Shown: positions 1,345-6,878, counted from the stretch's first letter. The stretch is 64,000 nt of DNA from a virus (IMGVR_UViG_2974736276_000001:111775-175774), one strand, 5' to 3'. Made by a program: numbers and translations. The notes: generated by a model not told the origin, from the sequence alone.

Positions 1345-1515
1345 TTATTTTTTAATCCAATTAATAGGAACAATTTCACTATACTTCTGTTGTTCTTCGG
1401 AGAAATGGTCAAGAAATAATGTCCAAGCAGCTTTTTCACTATTAAAGATGAAAAACGTTCCATCTTTCTTATTATGCCATATTCGACCAGTTCTTTTTGA
1501 GATTATTGCAAACAT
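1345..1515 (-). CDS. hypothetical protein
   Basis: Start MFAIISK at 1515 after GGAG SD. Confidence 0.5.
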   Translation of the reverse strand: MFAIISKRTGRIWHNKKDGTFFIFNSEKAAWTLFLDHFSEEQQKYSEIVPINWIKK

Positions 1516-1829
1516 AATTTCTCCACAAATGCCCATTCAGCGTGATATACAGTTGCGCCTTTAATGTCACTGAGCATTTCAGTTCCGACTGGTGCAACCA
1601 CACGATAAAGTACAGGCTCTCCGCCAATTGACCGAGCTGCTCGACCTGCATAGATTTTTGCCAGACCTAAGTCTTCTGTGAAGAACACTCGGTCCAAATT
1701 TTTCTTACGGCCCGTTTCACTGAGAGTTTGGGTTGTAGATGGTGGAAGAAGCATATCCTTGATACCTGCTACAGTACAAGAACCATGATAAAAGACCTTT
1801 GCTTCTTTCCGACAGTGAATGGTTTCCAT
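1503..1829 (-). CDS. Arr-like (H-Y clade) ADP-ribosyltransferase domain protein
   Basis: FYHGS ... LLPP ... RVFFTEDLGLAKIYA ... VLYRV motif pattern of rifampin-ART (Arr)-like enzymes; GGAGG SD; directly after an early promoter. Confidence 0.6.
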   Translation of the reverse strand: METIHCRKEAKVFYHGSCTVAGIKDMLLPPSTTQTLSETGRKKNLDRVFFTEDLGLAKIYAGRAARSIGGEPVLYRVVAPVGTEMLSDIKGATVYHAEWAFVEKLCLQ

Positions 1830-1896: not shown

Positions 1897-1923
1897 AAAA
1901 AAGCCTCAACCGAAGTTGAGGCT
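1897..1923 (-). terminator. Rho-independent terminator ending the hoc/depolymerase operon
   Basis: AGCCTCAAC-TTCG-GTTGAGGCT followed by a T run. Confidence 0.85.
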
Positions 1924-1928
1924 ATTAA

Positions 1929-4709
1929 TTACGATGTTACAGTGACAGTTGTTACACCACCATAAGTTGTTGCGCCAGTACCACCTGCACCGTTAGGAGA
2001 ACGAACTGCAAGACGATATTGACCAGCATCTGCTGCAGCCATGCTCGCTTTGGTTAACGTCTGAGCTGTTGCGCCAGATACGTTTGTCCAAGTTGAACCA
2101 TTATCAGAAGAGAACTGCCATTGCTGAGAAATTACATCAGTAACGACTGTAGTCAATGTTAATGTTGCACCTGCAGCTACTGAAGCTGTTGCCGGGTTCG
2201 CAGTCGTAAAGACTGGTTTCCAAGCAAATACTGGCCATGCCATTTCCTGACCGTTGATGCTAATACGTTCCCAACGCTGAATGTTCGGTAGAACCGGTTC
2301 ATTCAAGAATTGCGCATCAGTAGCAACAGTAGTCAACGTGGTATTCACTGCCGCAGTACTTGCAGTAGCGATTGCAGCTACAGTACCAGAAGCACCGAAA
2401 CCTGCAGAACCTGTGTTGAAGTTAAAGCGACCAGTAACTGCGTTCAGACCAGGTGAACCTGCCTGAGTAATGCCCGATGGAACGTATTCGGCAGGGATAC
2501 CCGCTTCATCACGATGTAAACCAGTTGCTTCAACAAACACTGTTACTTCACCAGCACGAGGACGAATAGAAACCCAAACTGCAGGAATTATATCGTTAGT
2601 CGTTTGTGTCTGATATTGAACACCGCTGATTGGACCTTGACCTTCAGAATACCAAGAAATTTTCGGTGTACCACCTGTACCACGACCGATGTTAATTGTC
2701 GCTTCACCTTGAAGGTAATCGCCTGTAATATTCTGAGTAGTTGAAGTGTTATAGTAAATACCACCTAAAACACGTGCTCTGAAGAATCCACCATTCGTTG
2801 GGTTACGGAATGAACCTAAGTTCAGGTACAACGTGTTATCAGTGTTGTTGGTTACACGAATTGGTCCACGTGTCCATTTAGCAACGACTGGGCAGTTGAA
2901 GTACGCACCGTAGTTCTGAAGAGTCCATGAACCTTGATCGTAACCACCAGTCCAAGCTGTGATAGCTGAACCATCTGGGTTTTTCGGATAACTATTCCAA
3001 GAACCAGAAGTAGGCGAGAATGAATCAAAGTTATTACCAGTCGGAACTGATTTGGTGATGCAAGTGTATTTGGTGTACCATAGAATCGGGTTATCAATAC
3101 AGTCTTCAACACAAACCATGCTCAAGTCCCATTGACCGTTGTTAATGTCAAATGGACATACGCCGTGTTCGAACCAGCAGTTACGCATGATTGCCTGTGC
3201 AGTTCTCGGTGCCCAAATAGCAGGAGCCATTGGATTTGAGAAGTTACAGTTGCTGAACACAATAGATGTTGAGTGATCCCAAGCACCGTATGTTTGACCC
3301 GACCAACCGATCTGGAATACAGGACCCGCTGTCAATGAACTGAAGATATTATCTGCAGTGCTGTCAAGTGTATCAAGCAAATAGAACATGTAAGAACCAG
3401 TGTTAATTGCTTGAATGTTTTCATACTTACCGAAACATCCGCCCGGACATTGGTTGCTCAAGAATGGCTGAGTATTACTCGCTGTATCGTTGAACACACC
3501 TTTAGTTGCACCGACTAGCATCTTAGTTGTAGTATCTTGTGCTACAGTCTGCTGTCCATTCCAGATTAAATCACGAACTGTCAAACGACGATGGTTCACA
3601 AGGAACACAGGCGAAGTTGATTTATCCGAAATAATCGTAGTTTGAATTTGACGACCGGATTCTACAGGAGCACCTTTAATTACAAGACCACTTGCAGCGT
3701 AATATCCTGATGGGTTAAACACTGCGTCAGCAGCACCATCAGCAACTTTAGCACCGTATTTGGTATATTCTGCCGGCTTCATGAAATACGTACCAGTGTT
3801 GAACTGGATTGGTAAAGTGAATCCTTTATTACCTACACGAGATTGAGCATATGATGAAACCACGAAATCTAGGTTCAATTTAAATGCAGGCTGAGCATCG
3901 GTAACACCGTCAGCTACACCACCGAAATCTGCGATAGTTAAATCTTGTAGAAGTTTATCACGAGTCCAATAACCTGTTCCGGCTTTGATTACAACACCGC
4001 CGTCATCTGTTGCAGAACCAGTTTTGGTACCAATAAACCAACCTGCGCCTTCTGGGCGGAAAACTGCTAGTGATGAAGGAGTGTGAACTTTCAGATAAAC
4101 ACGTTCACCGTCTGCTGCAGGTTGACGTGCACGAAGAGCAGTGATATTCGCTACACCATTAACAGAATTCAACAATGAAGTAGTATTCGTGTTTGCTGTA
4201 TTAGCATTGGTTGTCGCAGTAGCAGCTGCAGATTTAGCATCTGCTGCATCAGTTTTAGCTGAGCTAATGTCTGAAGTATTTTTACTTACATCAGTCTGCA
4301 TATTAGTAACTTTTGTATCAAGTCCACTAACTTGTGTAGTCAGTTGAGTTACTTTAGTCGCAGACGCATCAGCGCTATCTTTGGCAGCTTGAATTTGAAT
4401 AGCTTGTGCTTTGACTTGATTATCAAGAGCAGTGATATTCGTATTAATTCCCGCAACATCAGAGAAAGCAATACCAAACAATACGCCTTTAGATCCGTCA
4501 CTCAATTCAAACTGAATGTCATAACCACCATTACCTGCAGCAAATTCAAAGAATCCACTTGTATCAGATATCAATGGGTTTGTAATTTTTGCTTCGGCAC
4601 GGTTATATAAATCCGCAAGAGTAGTAGTACCCTGCTTATAAACATAGACCTTAGCCCCTGGGACAATTGCACCGGTTTTGCTCGTCGATACAAAGCTTTT
4701 AATTTCCAT
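1929..4709 (-). CDS. tailspike / EPS-depolymerase-like protein with C-terminal Ig-like domain
   Basis: N-terminal tailspike-type anchor (PGAKVYVYKQGTTTLADLY..NPL.SD..G.F.F); coiled coil ~aa 85-185; DFGGVADGVTD..PAF pectate-lyase-like beta-helix entry motif; C-terminal Ig repeat (QWQFSSDNGSTWTNVSGAT...DAGQYRL). Resembles putative EPS depolymerases of Erwinia phages as recalled. Confidence 0.75.
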   Translation of the reverse strand: MEIKSFVSTSKTGAIVPGAKVYVYKQGTTTLADLYNRAEAKITNPLISDTSGFFEFAAGNGGYDIQFELSDGSKGVLFGIAFSDVAGINTNITALDNQVKAQAIQIQAAKDSADASATKVTQLTTQVSGLDTKVTNMQTDVSKNTSDISSAKTDAADAKSAAATATTNANTANTNTTSLLNSVNGVANITALRARQPAADGERVYLKVHTPSSLAVFRPEGAGWFIGTKTGSATDDGGVVIKAGTGYWTRDKLLQDLTIADFGGVADGVTDAQPAFKLNLDFVVSSYAQSRVGNKGFTLPIQFNTGTYFMKPAEYTKYGAKVADGAADAVFNPSGYYAASGLVIKGAPVESGRQIQTTIISDKSTSPVFLVNHRRLTVRDLIWNGQQTVAQDTTTKMLVGATKGVFNDTASNTQPFLSNQCPGGCFGKYENIQAINTGSYMFYLLDTLDSTADNIFSSLTAGPVFQIGWSGQTYGAWDHSTSIVFSNCNFSNPMAPAIWAPRTAQAIMRNCWFEHGVCPFDINNGQWDLSMVCVEDCIDNPILWYTKYTCITKSVPTGNNFDSFSPTSGSWNSYPKNPDGSAITAWTGGYDQGSWTLQNYGAYFNCPVVAKWTRGPIRVTNNTDNTLYLNLGSFRNPTNGGFFRARVLGGIYYNTSTTQNITGDYLQGEATINIGRGTGGTPKISWYSEGQGPISGVQYQTQTTNDIIPAVWVSIRPRAGEVTVFVEATGLHRDEAGIPAEYVPSGITQAGSPGLNAVTGRFNFNTGSAGFGASGTVAAIATASTAAVNTTLTTVATDAQFLNEPVLPNIQRWERISINGQEMAWPVFAWKPVFTTANPATASVAAGATLTLTTVVTDVISQQWQFSSDNGSTWTNVSGATAQTLTKASMAAADAGQYRLAVRSPNGAGGTGATTYGGVTTVTVTS

Positions 4710-4718
4710 ACCTTTCCT

Positions 4719-5072
4719 TTATATTACTATTTTCAACGGATCAATGTATACTAAATTCACTAAATCAGGCACAGGCCATTCACCAGTCCCGCCAAGACCA
4801 ACATTCTCTGGAATGTAATTTTCCCACATTGCAAAATATTCGTCTTCTATTTCTTGTTTGTTAAAGATGTATCCGCTTAATATCTCTTTAACATTCAGTT
4901 CATCATAATTTTTGAAAGCTTCAGACAACATGAATAATTCGCCTGGGTATTTCAACTGATTATACTGGGTTTTCCAATCAATTCCAAGTGATTTTGCCCT
5001 AATGGTTTCATTAAGAACAGGAAAACTTGTGATTGTACTTCCGACAGTTTTAGCTTTGATTATCGCAACCAT
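4719..5072 (-). CDS. degenerate Hoc C-terminal (capsid-binding) domain paralogue 3
   Basis: IRAKSLGIDWKT...ELFMLSEAFKNYDELNVKEILSGYIFNKQEIE aligns by eye with the two upstream hoc-like ORFs. Confidence 0.7.
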   Translation of the reverse strand: MVAIIKAKTVGSTITSFPVLNETIRAKSLGIDWKTQYNQLKYPGELFMLSEAFKNYDELNVKEILSGYIFNKQEIEDEYFAMWENYIPENVGLGGTGEWPVPDLVNLVYIDPLKIVI

Positions 5073-5116
5073 ACGAGTTCCTTTCTTATTTAATAGGTCT
5101 TGACGGCTTCTATTTA

Positions 5117-5503
5117 TTACATAACTATTAGTGCCATCGGATTAATGTAAATTACACTATCTGGCTCAGGGTCGGGACCGGGCGGGGTAGGGTCTTCATC
5201 TTTGGGAAGATGAGGGGTTGGATACGTATTAAAATCAAAATCATAGTAAATATAGCCAGATTCAATTTGTTCCTTATTGAAAATGTATCCATTTAAAGAT
5301 TCTTGTACTTCAACTTCGTCATATAACTCAAACATTTCTGCAAGAGTATAGAGATCAGATGAATATTGCAATTCATTATATTTTGTTTTCCAGTCGATAT
5401 TGAGATATCTAGCTCTCATTATCTCAATGATAACCCACCAACCTACTCGAAGAAATCCAGTCTTTCGGTTGGGTAGATCATGAATATAGCGTAACTCTAC
5501 CAT
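5117..5503 (-). CDS. Hoc C-terminal domain paralogue 2 with Pro-rich tail
   Basis: YIHDLPNR..F..VGWWV..EI.RA....IDWK...EVQESLNGY Hoc capsid-binding motif; no Ig domain. Confidence 0.8.
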   Translation of the reverse strand: MVELRYIHDLPNRKTGFLRVGWWVIIEIMRARYLNIDWKTKYNELQYSSDLYTLAEMFELYDEVEVQESLNGYIFNKEQIESGYIYYDFDFNTYPTPHLPKDEDPTPPGPDPEPDSVIYINPMALIVM

Positions 5504-5518
5504 AATCTACCCTTAATA

Positions 5519-6052
5519 TTAGCTCAGTGCGTATCCAGCTTCTACCTGATCTTTACCCCAAACATATCCATTACGAGATTCTTGTACTTCCGGATTAGGG
5601 TAGTCTTCAAACATCTTAGCTAATGTAAGCAGTTCGCGTTTGTAGTTCAATGGATCTGGCGCAGATTTCCAATCAAGACCTAATTCGCCTGCACGATGGA
5701 TTTCATTAATTACCCACCAACCAACTTGAATAAATGCAGCATCGCGTTGTGGCAATGGATGAACATAAGCGAATCCACCTTCTGGCGTAGGAATTACTTT
5801 TTCTTCAACAGCAAGAACAACTGCATCGGAAGTTTCAGTATCACCGCCAGAAAGAGTAGCAATTACAGTATACGAACCGGCGTCCGATTCTTTTACAGAA
5901 GCAATATCAAATGTAGCAGTAGGACTCGATGCTAGTTGTGTATTTCCTTTTTTGAACTCGTAATTAGTATATGCACCATCTCCTGAAGCTGTTAGCTTAA
6001 CGGCATCACCGACAGTAGCAGGGTTTTTCGAGATTGCTAAAGTAATAGCCAT
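5519..6052 (-). CDS. hoc: Hoc head outer capsid protein (one Ig domain plus capsid-binding domain)
   Basis: Ig-like N-terminus (DAGSYTV); YVHPLPQR..VGWWV...EVQESRNGY; downstream of inh as in T4. Confidence 0.88.
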   Translation of the reverse strand: MAITLAISKNPATVGDAVKLTASGDGAYTNYEFKKGNTQLASSPTATFDIASVKESDAGSYTVIATLSGGDTETSDAVVLAVEEKVIPTPEGGFAYVHPLPQRDAAFIQVGWWVINEIHRAGELGLDWKSAPDPLNYKRELLTLAKMFEDYPNPEVQESRNGYVWGKDQVEAGYALS

Positions 6053-6065
6053 TTGTTCTCCTTGA

Positions 6066-6085
6066 AAAGGCCTTTCGGCCTTTTA
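6066..6085 (-). terminator. hairpin/terminator between inh and hoc
   Basis: AAAAGGCC-GAAA-GGCCTTTT. Confidence 0.6.
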
Positions 6086-6820
6086 TTATTTTAATGTAAC
6101 GAATGATGAATTACGTGTTTCTCTAATGATTACAGAGCCATCACGTTTAATGTAATACAAGAGCGTTAGCAATGTATCATGGGCAGTCGGGTGAGGGAAA
6201 TCTAAAGGACGTTCTTTCCAGTCTTCATTCTCTGAAACCCATTGGTAAATCCACCAAGGCAGTGTCATATAACCAGGTGAACGACCTAATAGTGAAATTC
6301 GTGGTGAATAGTTTTCGGGCAATTGATATACAGATTCATCAGCTTTGATTTGTTCAATTGCTTCTTCGATAGTGTTATCGTTCAACGAATCTACTTGCTT
6401 GAATTCGTAGCCATGAGAAGCAGCAGCTTCTTTAATATGATCAGGAATCTCAGTCACAAGTGGTTCACTGAAAATAATTTTTGGCTCATCTACCTTAACG
6501 ATCTCAATTACTTTTTGAGAGTCTTCACCGATAGAATCAATCAAGAGTTTAGCTTCAGCTGGTGCTTCCTGGAATACAGCTGTTCCATCATTTTCGTCTG
6601 ATGCTTGAATAAGATCGGCGATGGAGACGCCTTCATTATCTTCAGGTAGTGGTTCATCAGCGAGCCTGGCTAATTCCTGTTCTAGATCAGTCAACATATT
6701 GTCGAATGATTTAGTTTTCTTCAGGTCTACGTTAAACGTTTGACCATATTCTGCGAGTTTAGATTTTGCTTCTTTGTTGTCTAGTGCACGCAGTTCTTCA
6801 ATATAAGCTTTATCGATCAT
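6086..6820 (-). CDS. inh: Inh, inhibitor of prohead protease / minor capsid protein
   Basis: MIDKAYIEELRAL..KEAK.KL.EY start; C-terminal LPWWIYQW...IRETRNSSF; divergent from uvsW. Confidence 0.92.
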   Translation of the reverse strand: MIDKAYIEELRALDNKEAKSKLAEYGQTFNVDLKKTKSFDNMLTDLEQELARLADEPLPEDNEGVSIADLIQASDENDGTAVFQEAPAEAKLLIDSIGEDSQKVIEIVKVDEPKIIFSEPLVTEIPDHIKEAAASHGYEFKQVDSLNDNTIEEAIEQIKADESVYQLPENYSPRISLLGRSPGYMTLPWWIYQWVSENEDWKERPLDFPHPTAHDTLLTLLYYIKRDGSVIIRETRNSSFVTLK

Positions 6821-6850: not shown

Positions 6851-6878
6851 TATAAATATAATTGTACTAATATTTATA
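6851..6878. promoter_or_regulatory. late promoters for uvsW (+) and inh (-)
   Basis: TATAAATA at 6851-6858 (+) and TATTTATA at 6871-6878 (-). Confidence 0.8.

What the first reader, a model, noticed from the sequence alone, without database searches (positions are those of the whole stretch)
1929..6052. Expanded hoc locus: three Hoc capsid-binding paralogues in line with a tailspike/EPS depolymerase, a candidate capsid-displayed depolymerase system
Seen: downstream of inh are three tandem ORFs carrying the Hoc C-terminal domain, with a decaying binding loop: ESRNG (5519-6052, plus one Ig domain), ESLNG (5117-5503) and EILSG (4719-5072). Nine nt after the third begins a 926-aa protein with a tailspike-type anchor, coiled coil, beta-helix and Ig domain. 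The first strong terminator comes only after it (1897-1923). Established: T4 has one hoc, whose C-terminal domain (ESRNG loop) binds gp23 hexamer centres; depolymerases are usually tail-associated. Inference: the depolymerase is a late virion protein encoded in a head-decoration operon, ~42 kb from the tail fibre genes. The Ig-less Hoc paralogues may be adaptors that mount a trimeric polysaccharide-degrading spike on the capsid.
Basis: partly seen in the sequence, partly recalled or inferred. Interest (0 to 1): 0.85.

Follow-up and report, generated by a model that had tools for sequence, protein, structure and literature searches.

The report
Extra Hoc genes beside phage depolymerase
A T4-like Erwinia phage carries two extra stripped-down copies of the head-decoration gene hoc directly upstream of a slime-degrading spike gene, but the spike's attachment end is of the kind other phages use on their tails, so a head-mounted enzyme is possible but not the likeliest reading.

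Summary
On the minus strand, inh, a one-Ig hoc, two Ig-less Hoc-domain ORFs (par2, par3) and a 926-aa EPS depolymerase are tightly packed. One exact late promoter lies upstream of inh and the only strong terminator follows the depolymerase.

The capsid-display reading is not supported, though it is not excluded. The depolymerase N-terminus (residues 1-85) belongs to a tailspike/tail-fibre anchor family. That family occurs in siphoviruses and small myoviruses that have no Hoc domain. Two sequenced T4-like relatives, FBB1 and Phynn, carry the same anchor-bearing spike without any par2-type gene.

New here: par2 is a conserved subfamily, not a decaying copy. It has a Hoc capsid-binding domain, a variable acidic/proline linker and a near-invariant C-terminal peptide (INPLxLIVM). 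Five orthologues exist. Two appear to share contigs with spikes that have the same anchor. par3 keeps the peptide but has lost the capsid-contact residues. The genome also holds a fifth Hoc-domain gene next to a collagen-like gene.

Best reading: an accessory virion spike inserted in the hoc-rnlB plastic region, next to a Hoc subfamily whose tethered peptide has an unknown partner.

The parts
6871..6878 (-). T4-type late promoter TATAAATA upstream of inh
   Evidence: It is the only exact match on the minus strand between 1900 and 6900. The only one-mismatch site inside the unit is AATAAATA at 5111-5118(-). One-mismatch sites are no more frequent than chance.
6086..6820 (-). inh, the prohead protease inhibitor. 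The likely ATG is at 6820; the mechanical ORF runs back to 6925.
   Evidence: phrog_1051 at 8.3e-83, matching from residue 36 of the listed ORF. The IT22 annotation has the same 735-nt gene.
6065..6084 (.). Palindromic GC hairpin between inh and hoc; at most a weak terminator or RNA-stability element
   Evidence: Only four T's follow it on the minus strand.
5519..6052 (-). hoc1: one Ig-like domain plus the Hoc capsid-binding domain with an ESRNG loop
   Evidence: phrog_1149 at 1.7e-37 and PKD/Ig_3 hits. Aligned with the T4 Hoc C-terminus. IT22 annotates it as hoc.
5234..5503 (-). par2 capsid-binding domain (residues 1-90). It keeps Y, H, R, WW and the N of ES(L)NG.
   Evidence: phrog_1149 at 3.8e-29. 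The AF2 model has pLDDT about 80-88 over this core. [quoted passage not shown] Contact residues are taken from PMC10385173.
5120..5233 (-). par2 acidic/proline-rich linker and C-terminal peptide VIYINPMALIVM (peptide at 5120-5155)
   Evidence: The linker varies while the peptide is near-invariant in 5 of 5 orthologues. Residues 104-128 have pLDDT below 50, so they do not pack on the protein's own domain.
4719..5072 (-). par3: a divergent Hoc-domain copy. It has SFPV in place of GWWV and EILSG in place of ESRNG, lacks the N-terminal YxH strand, and keeps the terminal peptide LVYIDPLKIVI (4722-4754).
   Evidence: phrog_1149 at 4.5e-8; alignments. Outside IT22 only one close variant was found (P0015).
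4455..4709 (-). Depolymerase N-terminal particle-binding (anchor) domain, residues 1-85
   Evidence: tblastn hits in 33 phage records, 30 of them non-T4-like genomes of 41-117 kb where the gene is annotated tailspike, tail fibre or depolymerase. PDB matches: 9vyg/9vyh 'Tail spike protein' and 7eeq 'Tailspike head-binding domain'. Seven-way alignment. Atlas leads: Head_binding, phage_tail_N and Phage_tail_beta.
4155..4454 (-). Alanine/leucine-zipper coiled-coil stalk, about residues 86-185
   Evidence: Pfam LPP at 1.9e-5 and Alanine_zipper at 2.4e-3, both below their curated cut-offs. Lpp chains also appear.
2379..4157 (-). EPS depolymerase body, residues 185-777
   Evidence: PDB 6tgf at 1.5e-48 and phrog_4250 at 4.5e-151. 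It is 49-59% identical to annotated EPS depolymerases of the Erwinia/Pantoea phages Hena1, pEp_SNUABM_01, Bue1, phiEa2809, AAS21 and KEY.
1983..2222 (-). C-terminal Ig-like domain of the depolymerase, residues 830-909
   Evidence: Pfam Ig_3 and the 9c2d/9ncf tail-protein Ig repeats. It is also part of the Hena1-type depolymerases (coverage to residue 903). It is only marginally like the Ig domain of hoc1 (E 0.043).
1897..1923 (-). Intrinsic terminator closing the unit
   Evidence: Stem of 9 pairs followed by TTTTTCATTT.

Best explanation
The window comes from a T4-like Erwinia phage of the Cronus/IT22 lineage. The slot between hoc and rnlB, which holds only small ORFs in T4 and in Winklervirus relatives, has acquired three genes here. 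They are read with inh and hoc from one late promoter.

(1) The 926-aa protein is a trimeric EPS depolymerase spike. Its parts, in order, are an N-terminal particle-binding domain, a coiled-coil stalk, a WceF/AmsF-type polysaccharide-cleaving body and a C-terminal Ig domain. It most likely rides on the virion at a tail or neck site, as its homologues are taken to do. It would strip amylovoran- or stewartan-type slime so that the tail fibres can reach the cell surface. It does not depend on the Hoc paralogues.

(2) par2 is a conserved Ig-less Hoc subfamily. It probably sits on gp23 hexamer centres, in competition with hoc1 and hoc2. It would hold out a flexible acidic linker that ends in a conserved hydrophobic peptide, which docks to an unidentified partner.

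(3) par3 is a lineage-specific copy of par2. It keeps the peptide but has lost the capsid contacts, so it probably no longer binds the capsid in the Hoc manner.

Shown: the gene structure, the homologies, conservation of the peptide and its distribution in relatives. Inferred: late co-transcription, trimer formation, substrate, position on the virion and capsid binding by par2.
For: Operon anatomy.

Identity of the phage: 97.6% nucleotide identity to IT22 over 98% of a 5.6-kb query.

Plastic slot: T4 has hoc-24.3-24.2-rnlB. X20 and Virsaitis27 have the same order.

Depolymerase body.

The anchor is a tail-type module:
- 30 of 33 phage records with an anchor hit are small non-T4 genomes.
- In the IMG/VR contigs L017 and L019 the gene directly follows the tape-measure gene and a phrog_1101 tail protein.
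- PDB depositors name the matched chains tail spike.
- The Vid5 authors report similarity to the P22 tailspike particle-binding domain. They detected gp10 in virions by LC-MS/MS (passages).
- Vid5 and MTx show no Hoc-domain match, 0 of 2. A similar profile search found the domain in 4 of 4 T4-like genomes.

Module swapping on a conserved anchor, as is typical of tailspikes: P0005 and P0004 share the anchor at 64% and 77% identity with otherwise only 29% and 35% overall identity.

Independence from par2:
- FBB1 has inh-hoc-depolymerase with nothing in between.
- Phynn has the spike at another locus near baseplate genes.
- Neither genome has any ORF ending in the par2-type peptide.
- The 6,333-bp contig length is shared by a hoc1 orthologue and a depolymerase orthologue, but no par2 was returned for it.

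par2 as a functional family: 5 orthologues at 63-82% identity with an invariant ESLNG and a conserved terminal peptide. The fold matches the T4 Hoc capsid-binding domain.

par3 has lost the contact residues.
Against: No tool located the protein on a virion.

Phylogenetic profiling of 501 ORFs found no baseplate or neck gene, and no domain, that is shared by the three spike-bearing T4-like genomes and absent from two spike-less relatives. So the supposed tail docking site is unidentified.

In Vid5 and MTx the homologous gene lies between the head genes and the neck genes, not in the distal tail module. Anchor homology therefore does not by itself say 'baseplate'.

The hoc-to-depolymerase order recurs in FBB1 and probably in two metagenomic contigs.

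par2 orthologues appear to share contigs with same-anchor spikes in two further lineages, one with a different catalytic body.

The AF2 model of the anchor was too poor to use (pLDDT 44.5).
Confidence: 0.55

Rival explanations
1. Capsid display. par2, perhaps together with par3, binds gp23 hexamer centres through its Hoc domain. It holds the depolymerase trimer by docking its C-terminal peptide onto the spike's N-terminal domain or stalk, giving a head studded with slime-degrading spikes.
For: - par2 has an adaptor-like build: a folded capsid-binding domain, a disordered variable linker and a conserved terminal peptide.
- The genes are adjacent and probably co-transcribed.
A 13,005-bp contig carries hoc1 P0137, par2 P0132 and depolymerase P0010. 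A 171,705-bp contig carries par2 P0133 and spike P0004, which has a different body.
- No tail adaptor specific to the spike-bearing T4-likes was found.
- The literature already proposes that the Hoc capsid-binding domain displays other ligands. Enterobacter phage PG7 has an N-terminal Hoc domain fused to a GDSL esterase (passages of PMC10385173).
Against: - The same anchor works in phages with no Hoc domain.
- FBB1 and Phynn keep the anchor (50% and 43% identity) but have no par2-type peptide.
- par3, the gene nearest the spike, lacks the gp23-contact residues.
- Contig co-residence is inferred from equal lengths, not seen. On a 171.7-kb contig it says nothing about adjacency.
- No binding test could be run.
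Confidence: 0.17
2. The depolymerase is mainly a free, soluble enzyme released at lysis. It clears slime around plaques and is not a stable virion part. Its place in the hoc operon only supplies late, high expression.
For: [quoted passage not shown] No docking partner was found in the T4-like genomes.
Against: The N-terminal anchor is conserved at 43-77% identity while the catalytic body is exchanged. This points to selection on an attachment function. The Vid5 homologue was detected in purified virions.
Confidence: 0.1
3. par2 and par3 are merely decaying tandem duplicates of hoc with no function of their own, and their position next to the depolymerase is an accident of insertion.
For: par3 has lost the conserved motifs and was found only in the Cronus/IT22 lineage. 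Against IT22 there are too few substitutions to test selection: par2 has 3 synonymous and 0 non-synonymous changes, par3 has 1 and 0.
Against: par2 has 5 intact orthologues down to 63% identity, with an invariant ESLNG and a conserved terminal peptide after a freely varying linker. par3 also keeps that peptide and an intact frame.
Confidence: 0.08

Closest known systems
T4 Hoc (highly immunogenic outer capsid protein), C-terminal capsid-binding domain; PDB 8t1x
   Same: hoc1, par2 and par3 are homologous to the capsid-binding domain. The par2 model superposes on 8t1x_X. hoc1 has the usual order of Ig domain followed by capsid-binding domain.
   Different: par2 and par3 have no Ig domain. They carry a C-terminal linker and peptide that T4 Hoc lacks. 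par2 has ESLNG in place of ESRNG. par3 lacks the Y/H strand, the WW pair and the R-N of the loop.
Enterobacter phage PG7 second Hoc-like protein (511 aa; N-terminal capsid-binding domain plus GDSL-like esterase), as described in PMC10385173; phrog_9703 has a similar layout
   Same: The capsid-binding domain is at the N-terminus with something else downstream. It carries the idea that the domain is used to display an enzyme on the head. hoc1 and par2 match phrog_9703 over profile positions 1-71.
   Different: There the enzyme is fused covalently. Here the depolymerase is a separate ORF with its own tailspike-type anchor, so any link would have to be non-covalent and is unproven.
EPS depolymerases of Erwinia/Pantoea phages (Hena1, pEp_SNUABM_01, Bue1/phiEa2809, AAS21/KEY, Vid5 gp10) and the bacterial protein in PDB 6tgf
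   Same: Residues 183-906 are 49-59% identical to the annotated EPS depolymerases. Residues 185-777 align with 6tgf at 1.5e-48. The anchor is 44% identical to that of Vid5 gp10.
   Different: The host phage is T4-like. Only 3 of 132 matching phage records cover at least 80% of the protein, and all three are T4-like: IT22, Phynn and FBB1. The gene sits in the hoc operon rather than a tail module.
P22-type tailspike N-terminal particle-binding ('head-binding') domain and prophage tail-fibre N-terminal domains
   Same: The Vid5 authors report HHpred similarity of the homologous N-terminus to the P22 domain. PDB 7eeq 'Tailspike head-binding domain' matches weakly at E 0.016-0.021. The Atlas gives Head_binding and phage_tail_N clusters as leads.
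   Different: The matches are weak. No Pfam Head_binding hit was obtained here. The docking site on a T4-type virion is unknown.
Docking peptides of branched receptor-binding protein systems (Klebsiella podophages KP32, K11, KP34)
   Same: A short conserved peptide on one protein docks it to a domain of another. This is a working analogy for the par2/par3 terminal peptide (abstract seen in the listing, PMC13352976).
   Different: Those peptides sit on tailspikes and dock to another tailspike. Here the peptide sits on a capsid-binding domain and its partner is unknown. This is an analogy only; no homology was tested.

Membership tests
Hoc-like head decoration proteins | Homology to the Hoc C-terminal capsid-binding domain | tested here: met
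   phrog_1149 at 1.7e-37 (hoc1), 3.8e-29 (par2) and 4.5e-8 (par3). The par2 model matches 8t1x_X at E 3.9e-5.
Hoc-like head decoration proteins | Conserved gp23-contact residues (T4 Y293, H295, R300, W309, W310 and the E355-S-R-N-G359 loop; PMC10385173) | tested here: inconclusive
   hoc1 has all of them. par2 has all except R357, which is L and is invariant in its orthologues. par3 lacks Y293/H295, has F-P in place of W-W and has EILSG. So the feature is met for hoc1, nearly met for par2 and not met for par3.
Hoc-like head decoration proteins | String of N-terminal Ig-like domains ahead of the capsid-binding domain | tested here: not met
   hoc1 has one Ig domain. par2 and par3 have none. Ig-less forms do exist in relatives, for example the 96-aa Hoc of Phynn.
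Hoc-like head decoration proteins | Binding at the centre of gp23 hexamers on mature heads | not testable with these tools
   Needs virion proteomics, cryo-EM or in vitro binding.
Phage EPS depolymerase / tailspike (phrog_4250; WceF/AmsF-like) | Homology of the catalytic body | tested here: met
   phrog_4250 at 4.5e-151, 6tgf at 1.5e-48, and 49-59% identity to annotated phage EPS depolymerases.
Phage EPS depolymerase / tailspike (phrog_4250; WceF/AmsF-like) | N-terminal particle-binding domain shared with tail-mounted spikes | tested here: met
Phage EPS depolymerase / tailspike (phrog_4250; WceF/AmsF-like) | Attachment to the tail of the virion | not testable with these tools
   Gene context of homologues is mixed. 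The gene follows distal tail genes in L017 and L019. It lies between head and neck genes in Vid5 and MTx.
Phage EPS depolymerase / tailspike (phrog_4250; WceF/AmsF-like) | Catalytic residues and activity on amylovoran or stewartan | not tested
Capsid-displayed enzyme of the PG7 type (Hoc domain fused to an enzyme) | Capsid-binding domain and enzyme in one polypeptide | tested here: not met
   The ORFs are separate, with a TAA stop and the depolymerase's own Shine-Dalgarno sequence and ATG. The par3 stop and the depolymerase ATG are in the same frame, 9 nt apart, but nothing indicates read-through.

The most novel reading that the evidence does not exclude
par2 defines a new class of non-covalent capsid adaptor. 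A Hoc capsid-binding domain on gp23 hexamers would hold out a flexible linker whose conserved C-terminal peptide (INPLxLIVM) captures the N-terminal module of a trimeric depolymerase spike. A T4-type head would then carry slime-degrading spikes. par3, which has lost capsid binding but kept the peptide, could act as a soluble assembly factor or competitor for the same site.
Probability: 0.15. Interest if true: 0.85.

Novelty: new variant of a known kind. Interest (0 to 1): 0.5.

Why it matters
Hoc is widely used as a display platform, and it is thought to let phages adhere to mucus and other surfaces. If a natural Hoc variant used a docking peptide to recruit other proteins, two things would follow. 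It would show that T4-type heads can be functionalised non-covalently in nature, and it would offer a ready-made tag for phage engineering.

Even on the ordinary reading, two points are useful. T4-like phages of Erwinia and Pantoea carry an exchangeable EPS depolymerase spike on a conserved anchor whose docking site is unknown. This lineage also encodes four Hoc capsid-binding-domain proteins (hoc1, par2, par3 and hoc2), so its head surface is probably a mosaic.

No paper seen here describes either feature for Cronus or IT22. The IT22 paper contains neither 'depolymerase' nor 'hoc'. Searches found no description.

Tried and rejected
- Close relatives of par3, par2 and P0016 in IMG/VR: none found.
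- par2 profile in metagenome contigs: none found.
- Anchor profile in metagenome contigs: one 1.1-kb fragment, of no use. The contigs that carry the par2 orthologues could therefore not be read. Co-residence rests on equal 'longest_contig' values only.
- AF2 model of the anchor (A2, 6 sequences): pLDDT 44.5, so it was not used for fold search.
- Inh C-terminus as a further Hoc-domain paralogue: phrog_1149 at 1.4e-3 and visible shared motifs, but hhalign against the par2 family gives only E 0.03 and probability 1.65%. Kept as a weak lead.
- Depolymerase Ig domain as a copy of the hoc1 Ig domain: E 0.043, rejected.
- Internal late promoters: only a one-mismatch AATAAATA ahead of par3. One-mismatch sites number 91 against 125 expected, so this carries no weight.
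- Selection test against IT22: too few differences.
- Phylogenetic profile for a tail adaptor: 6 of 501 ORFs fit 'present in FBB1 and Phynn, absent from X20 and Virsaitis27'. They are a 483-aa P-loop protein beside a gene-55-like ORF, two small ORFs, the collagen-like protein, orf108 and the depolymerase itself. None is a baseplate or neck protein. At domain level, only the Ig part of hoc2 is added.
- Literature search for 'ESRNG' and for the PDB code 9VYG: nothing relevant.
- The RcGTA tailspike preprint mentions 'Hoc' only in the phrase 'post hoc'.

Full report
**What the sequence is.** The window is the last 64 kb of a 175,774-bp T4-like phage genome. A 5.6-kb stretch around the finding is 97.6% identical to Erwinia phage IT22, species Roskildevirus cronus. 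The IT22 paper says the two phages are nearly identical and that Cronus has no published characterisation. It mentions neither hoc nor a depolymerase (passages).

**Check of the observation.** On the minus strand lie:
- inh (6086-6820; phrog_1051, 8.3e-83)
- hoc1 (5519-6052; 177 aa; one Ig domain plus the Hoc domain)
- par2 (5117-5503; 128 aa)
- par3 (4719-5072; 117 aa)
- a 926-aa EPS depolymerase (1929-4709; phrog_4250, 4.5e-151).

The gaps between genes are 15-44 nt, or 9 nt ahead of the depolymerase, and each gene has a Shine-Dalgarno-like sequence. The only exact late promoter lies upstream of inh. A strong terminator follows the depolymerase. A short hairpin with a poor T-run lies between inh and hoc. 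Alignment with T4 Hoc confirms the loops ESRNG, ESLNG and EILSG.

**The depolymerase.**
- Residues 185-777 align with PDB 6tgf at 1.5e-48.
- Residues 183-906 are 49-59% identical to annotated EPS depolymerases of unrelated Erwinia and Pantoea phages.
- Residues 86-185 give alanine/leucine-zipper hits, and residues 831-899 an Ig domain.

The part that bears on the finding is residues 1-85. A tblastn search with the first 100 residues hit 33 phage records. Three are T4-like (IT22, FBB1, Phynn). The other 30 are genomes of 41-117 kb in which the gene is called tailspike, tail fibre or depolymerase.

PDB chains named 'Tail spike protein' (9vyg, 9vyh) and 'Tailspike head-binding domain' (7eeq) match weakly. 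In two IMG/VR contigs the anchor-bearing gene directly follows the tape-measure gene and a large tail protein.

In Pantoea siphovirus Vid5 and Serratia myovirus MTx the gene lies between the head genes and the neck genes. The Vid5 authors found gp10 in virions by LC-MS/MS. They saw no side fibres by EM. They report HHpred similarity of its N-terminus to the P22 tailspike particle-binding domain. Neither Vid5 nor MTx has a Hoc-type domain (0 of 2).

The anchor is kept at 64-77% identity on proteins with different bodies (P0005, P0004). This is the usual pattern for exchangeable tailspikes.

**The paralogues.** A profile of par2 plus par3 was searched against 1.84 billion representatives and gave 116 hits. 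I read 6 of them. Apart from par3's own variant (P0015), only P0016 matched through to the C-terminal end.

A word-indexed search then returned five full-length par2 orthologues at 63-82% identity, plus FBB1 Hoc. In all five the loop is ESLNG, the linker differs in length and sequence, and the last residues read I/L-x-x-N-P-L/M-x-L/I-x-V-M. par3 ends in the related LVYIDPLKIVI.

An AF2 model of par2 folds residues 13-90 with pLDDT about 80-88 and leaves residues 104-128 disordered. The model's only significant fold match is the T4 Hoc capsid-binding domain bound to gp23* (8t1x_X; E 3.9e-5).

The published gp23-contact residues give this picture:
- par2 keeps Y, H, R, WW and N.
- par3 lacks the first strand and has F-P in place of W-W and L-S in place of R-N.

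So par2 is a maintained subfamily with a tethered terminal peptide. par3 is a lineage-specific derivative that probably no longer binds the capsid in the Hoc manner.

**Do the genes travel together?** The evidence is mixed.

For co-occurrence:
- Cronus and IT22 carry all of them.
- A 13,005-bp contig length is shared by a hoc1 orthologue (P0137), a par2 orthologue (P0132) and a depolymerase orthologue (P0010).
- A 171,705-bp length is shared by par2 orthologue P0133 and spike P0004, which has the same anchor but a different body.

Against co-occurrence:
- FBB1 has inh-hoc-depolymerase with nothing in between.
- Phynn has the spike at another locus beside baseplate genes, and a 96-aa Ig-less Hoc without the peptide.
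- No ORF in FBB1, Phynn, X20 or Virsaitis27 ends in the peptide.
- A 6,333-bp length links a hoc1 orthologue and a depolymerase orthologue with no par2 returned.

I could not read the metagenomic contigs themselves. Equal contig lengths are an inference.

**Search for a tail docking partner.** I compared 501 ORFs of the genome with the spike-bearing phages FBB1 and Phynn and with the spike-less Winklerviruses X20 and Virsaitis27. The anchor was present in 3 of 5 genomes. Six ORFs are present in both spike-bearing genomes and in neither spike-less one, and none is a baseplate or neck gene. No shared domain of a structural protein fits the pattern except the Ig part of hoc2.

Median identity over 57 core ORFs is 75% to FBB1, 66% to the Winklerviruses and 47% to Phynn. 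The depolymerase is only 38-39% identical to the FBB1 and Phynn proteins. The spike is therefore either fast-evolving or exchanged. The ordinary model thus lacks an identified docking site, and I count this against it.

**Weighing.** The anchor works without Hoc domains in other phages, and it occurs without par2 in two T4-like genomes. It therefore does not need par2. That makes tail or neck mounting the most economical reading (0.55).

The adaptor-like build of par2, its apparent co-residence with same-anchor spikes and the published PG7 precedent of a Hoc domain fused to an esterase keep capsid display alive (about 0.15-0.17). A free enzyme (0.1) and functionless duplicates (0.08) are less likely.

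**Wider context.** The genome holds a fifth Hoc-domain gene, hoc2 (166 aa; Ig domain plus capsid-binding domain with ESRNG). It lies immediately after a 337-aa collagen-repeat protein and a second gp24 paralogue. The pair of a collagen-like gene and a Hoc-like gene recurs in FBB1, Phynn and VR26. Several Hoc-type proteins therefore probably compete for the same hexamer sites in this lineage.

**Verdict.** The finding is a new variant of known kinds: a Hoc subfamily with a tethered peptide, and an EPS depolymerase spike in a T4-like phage. It is of moderate interest until the spike's place on the virion and the peptide's partner are known.

Noticed in passing
L015:3090-5940 (own genome 106589-109439, just upstream of the window): After gp23 and gp24 come a second gp24 paralogue (430 aa), a 337-aa collagen-repeat protein and, abutting it, a fifth Hoc-domain gene, hoc2 (166 aa; Ig domain plus ESRNG capsid-binding domain). 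The pair of a collagen-like gene and a Hoc-like gene recurs in FBB1, Phynn and VR26 but is absent from X20 and Virsaitis27. It is a candidate head-fibre module.
   Followed up: partly
window 6086-6400 (-): The C-terminus of Inh, in both this phage and T4, aligns with the Hoc capsid-binding domain (PWWIY, DWK, ETRNS). Support is weak: phrog_1149 at 1.4e-3, and hhalign against the par2 family at E 0.03.
   Followed up: partly
window 4709-4721 (-): The par3 stop (TAA) and the depolymerase ATG are in the same reading frame, 9 nt apart, with no further stop between them. A read-through product would fuse par3 to the spike. Nothing indicates that this happens, and being in frame has a one-in-three chance.
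   Followed up: no
window 1503-1829 (-): A 108-aa ORF (phrog_2110, unknown function) lies just after the terminator. Its Phynn homologue (69% identical) is annotated as an ADP-ribosyl transferase. It is present in FBB1 and Phynn but absent from the two Winklerviruses.
   Followed up: partly
L061:424-1875 (-) (own genome 33424-34875): A 483-aa protein with a Walker-A-like motif (phrog_2467, unknown function) lies beside a gene-55-like ORF. It shows the same presence/absence pattern as the spike: 83% identity in FBB1, 45% in Phynn, none in X20 or Virsaitis27. It lies among small early-type ORFs and is probably unrelated to the virion.
   Followed up: partly
L016:5742-6032 (Pantoea phage Phynn): Phynn's Hoc at the canonical place after inh is a 96-aa Ig-less capsid-binding domain with a short PEPETEPETK tail. 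The record annotates it 'capsid vertex protein'.
   Followed up: partly
P0005 and P0004 (unnamed metagenome proteins): The same N-terminal anchor (64% and 77% identical over 100 residues) is joined to quite different bodies (738 aa and 1111 aa). This shows module exchange on this anchor among related phages.
   Followed up: partly
window 6851-6858 (+) and 6871-6878 (-): Two exact TATAAATA motifs face away from each other in the 20 nt between them, in the inh/uvsW divergent region.
   Followed up: no
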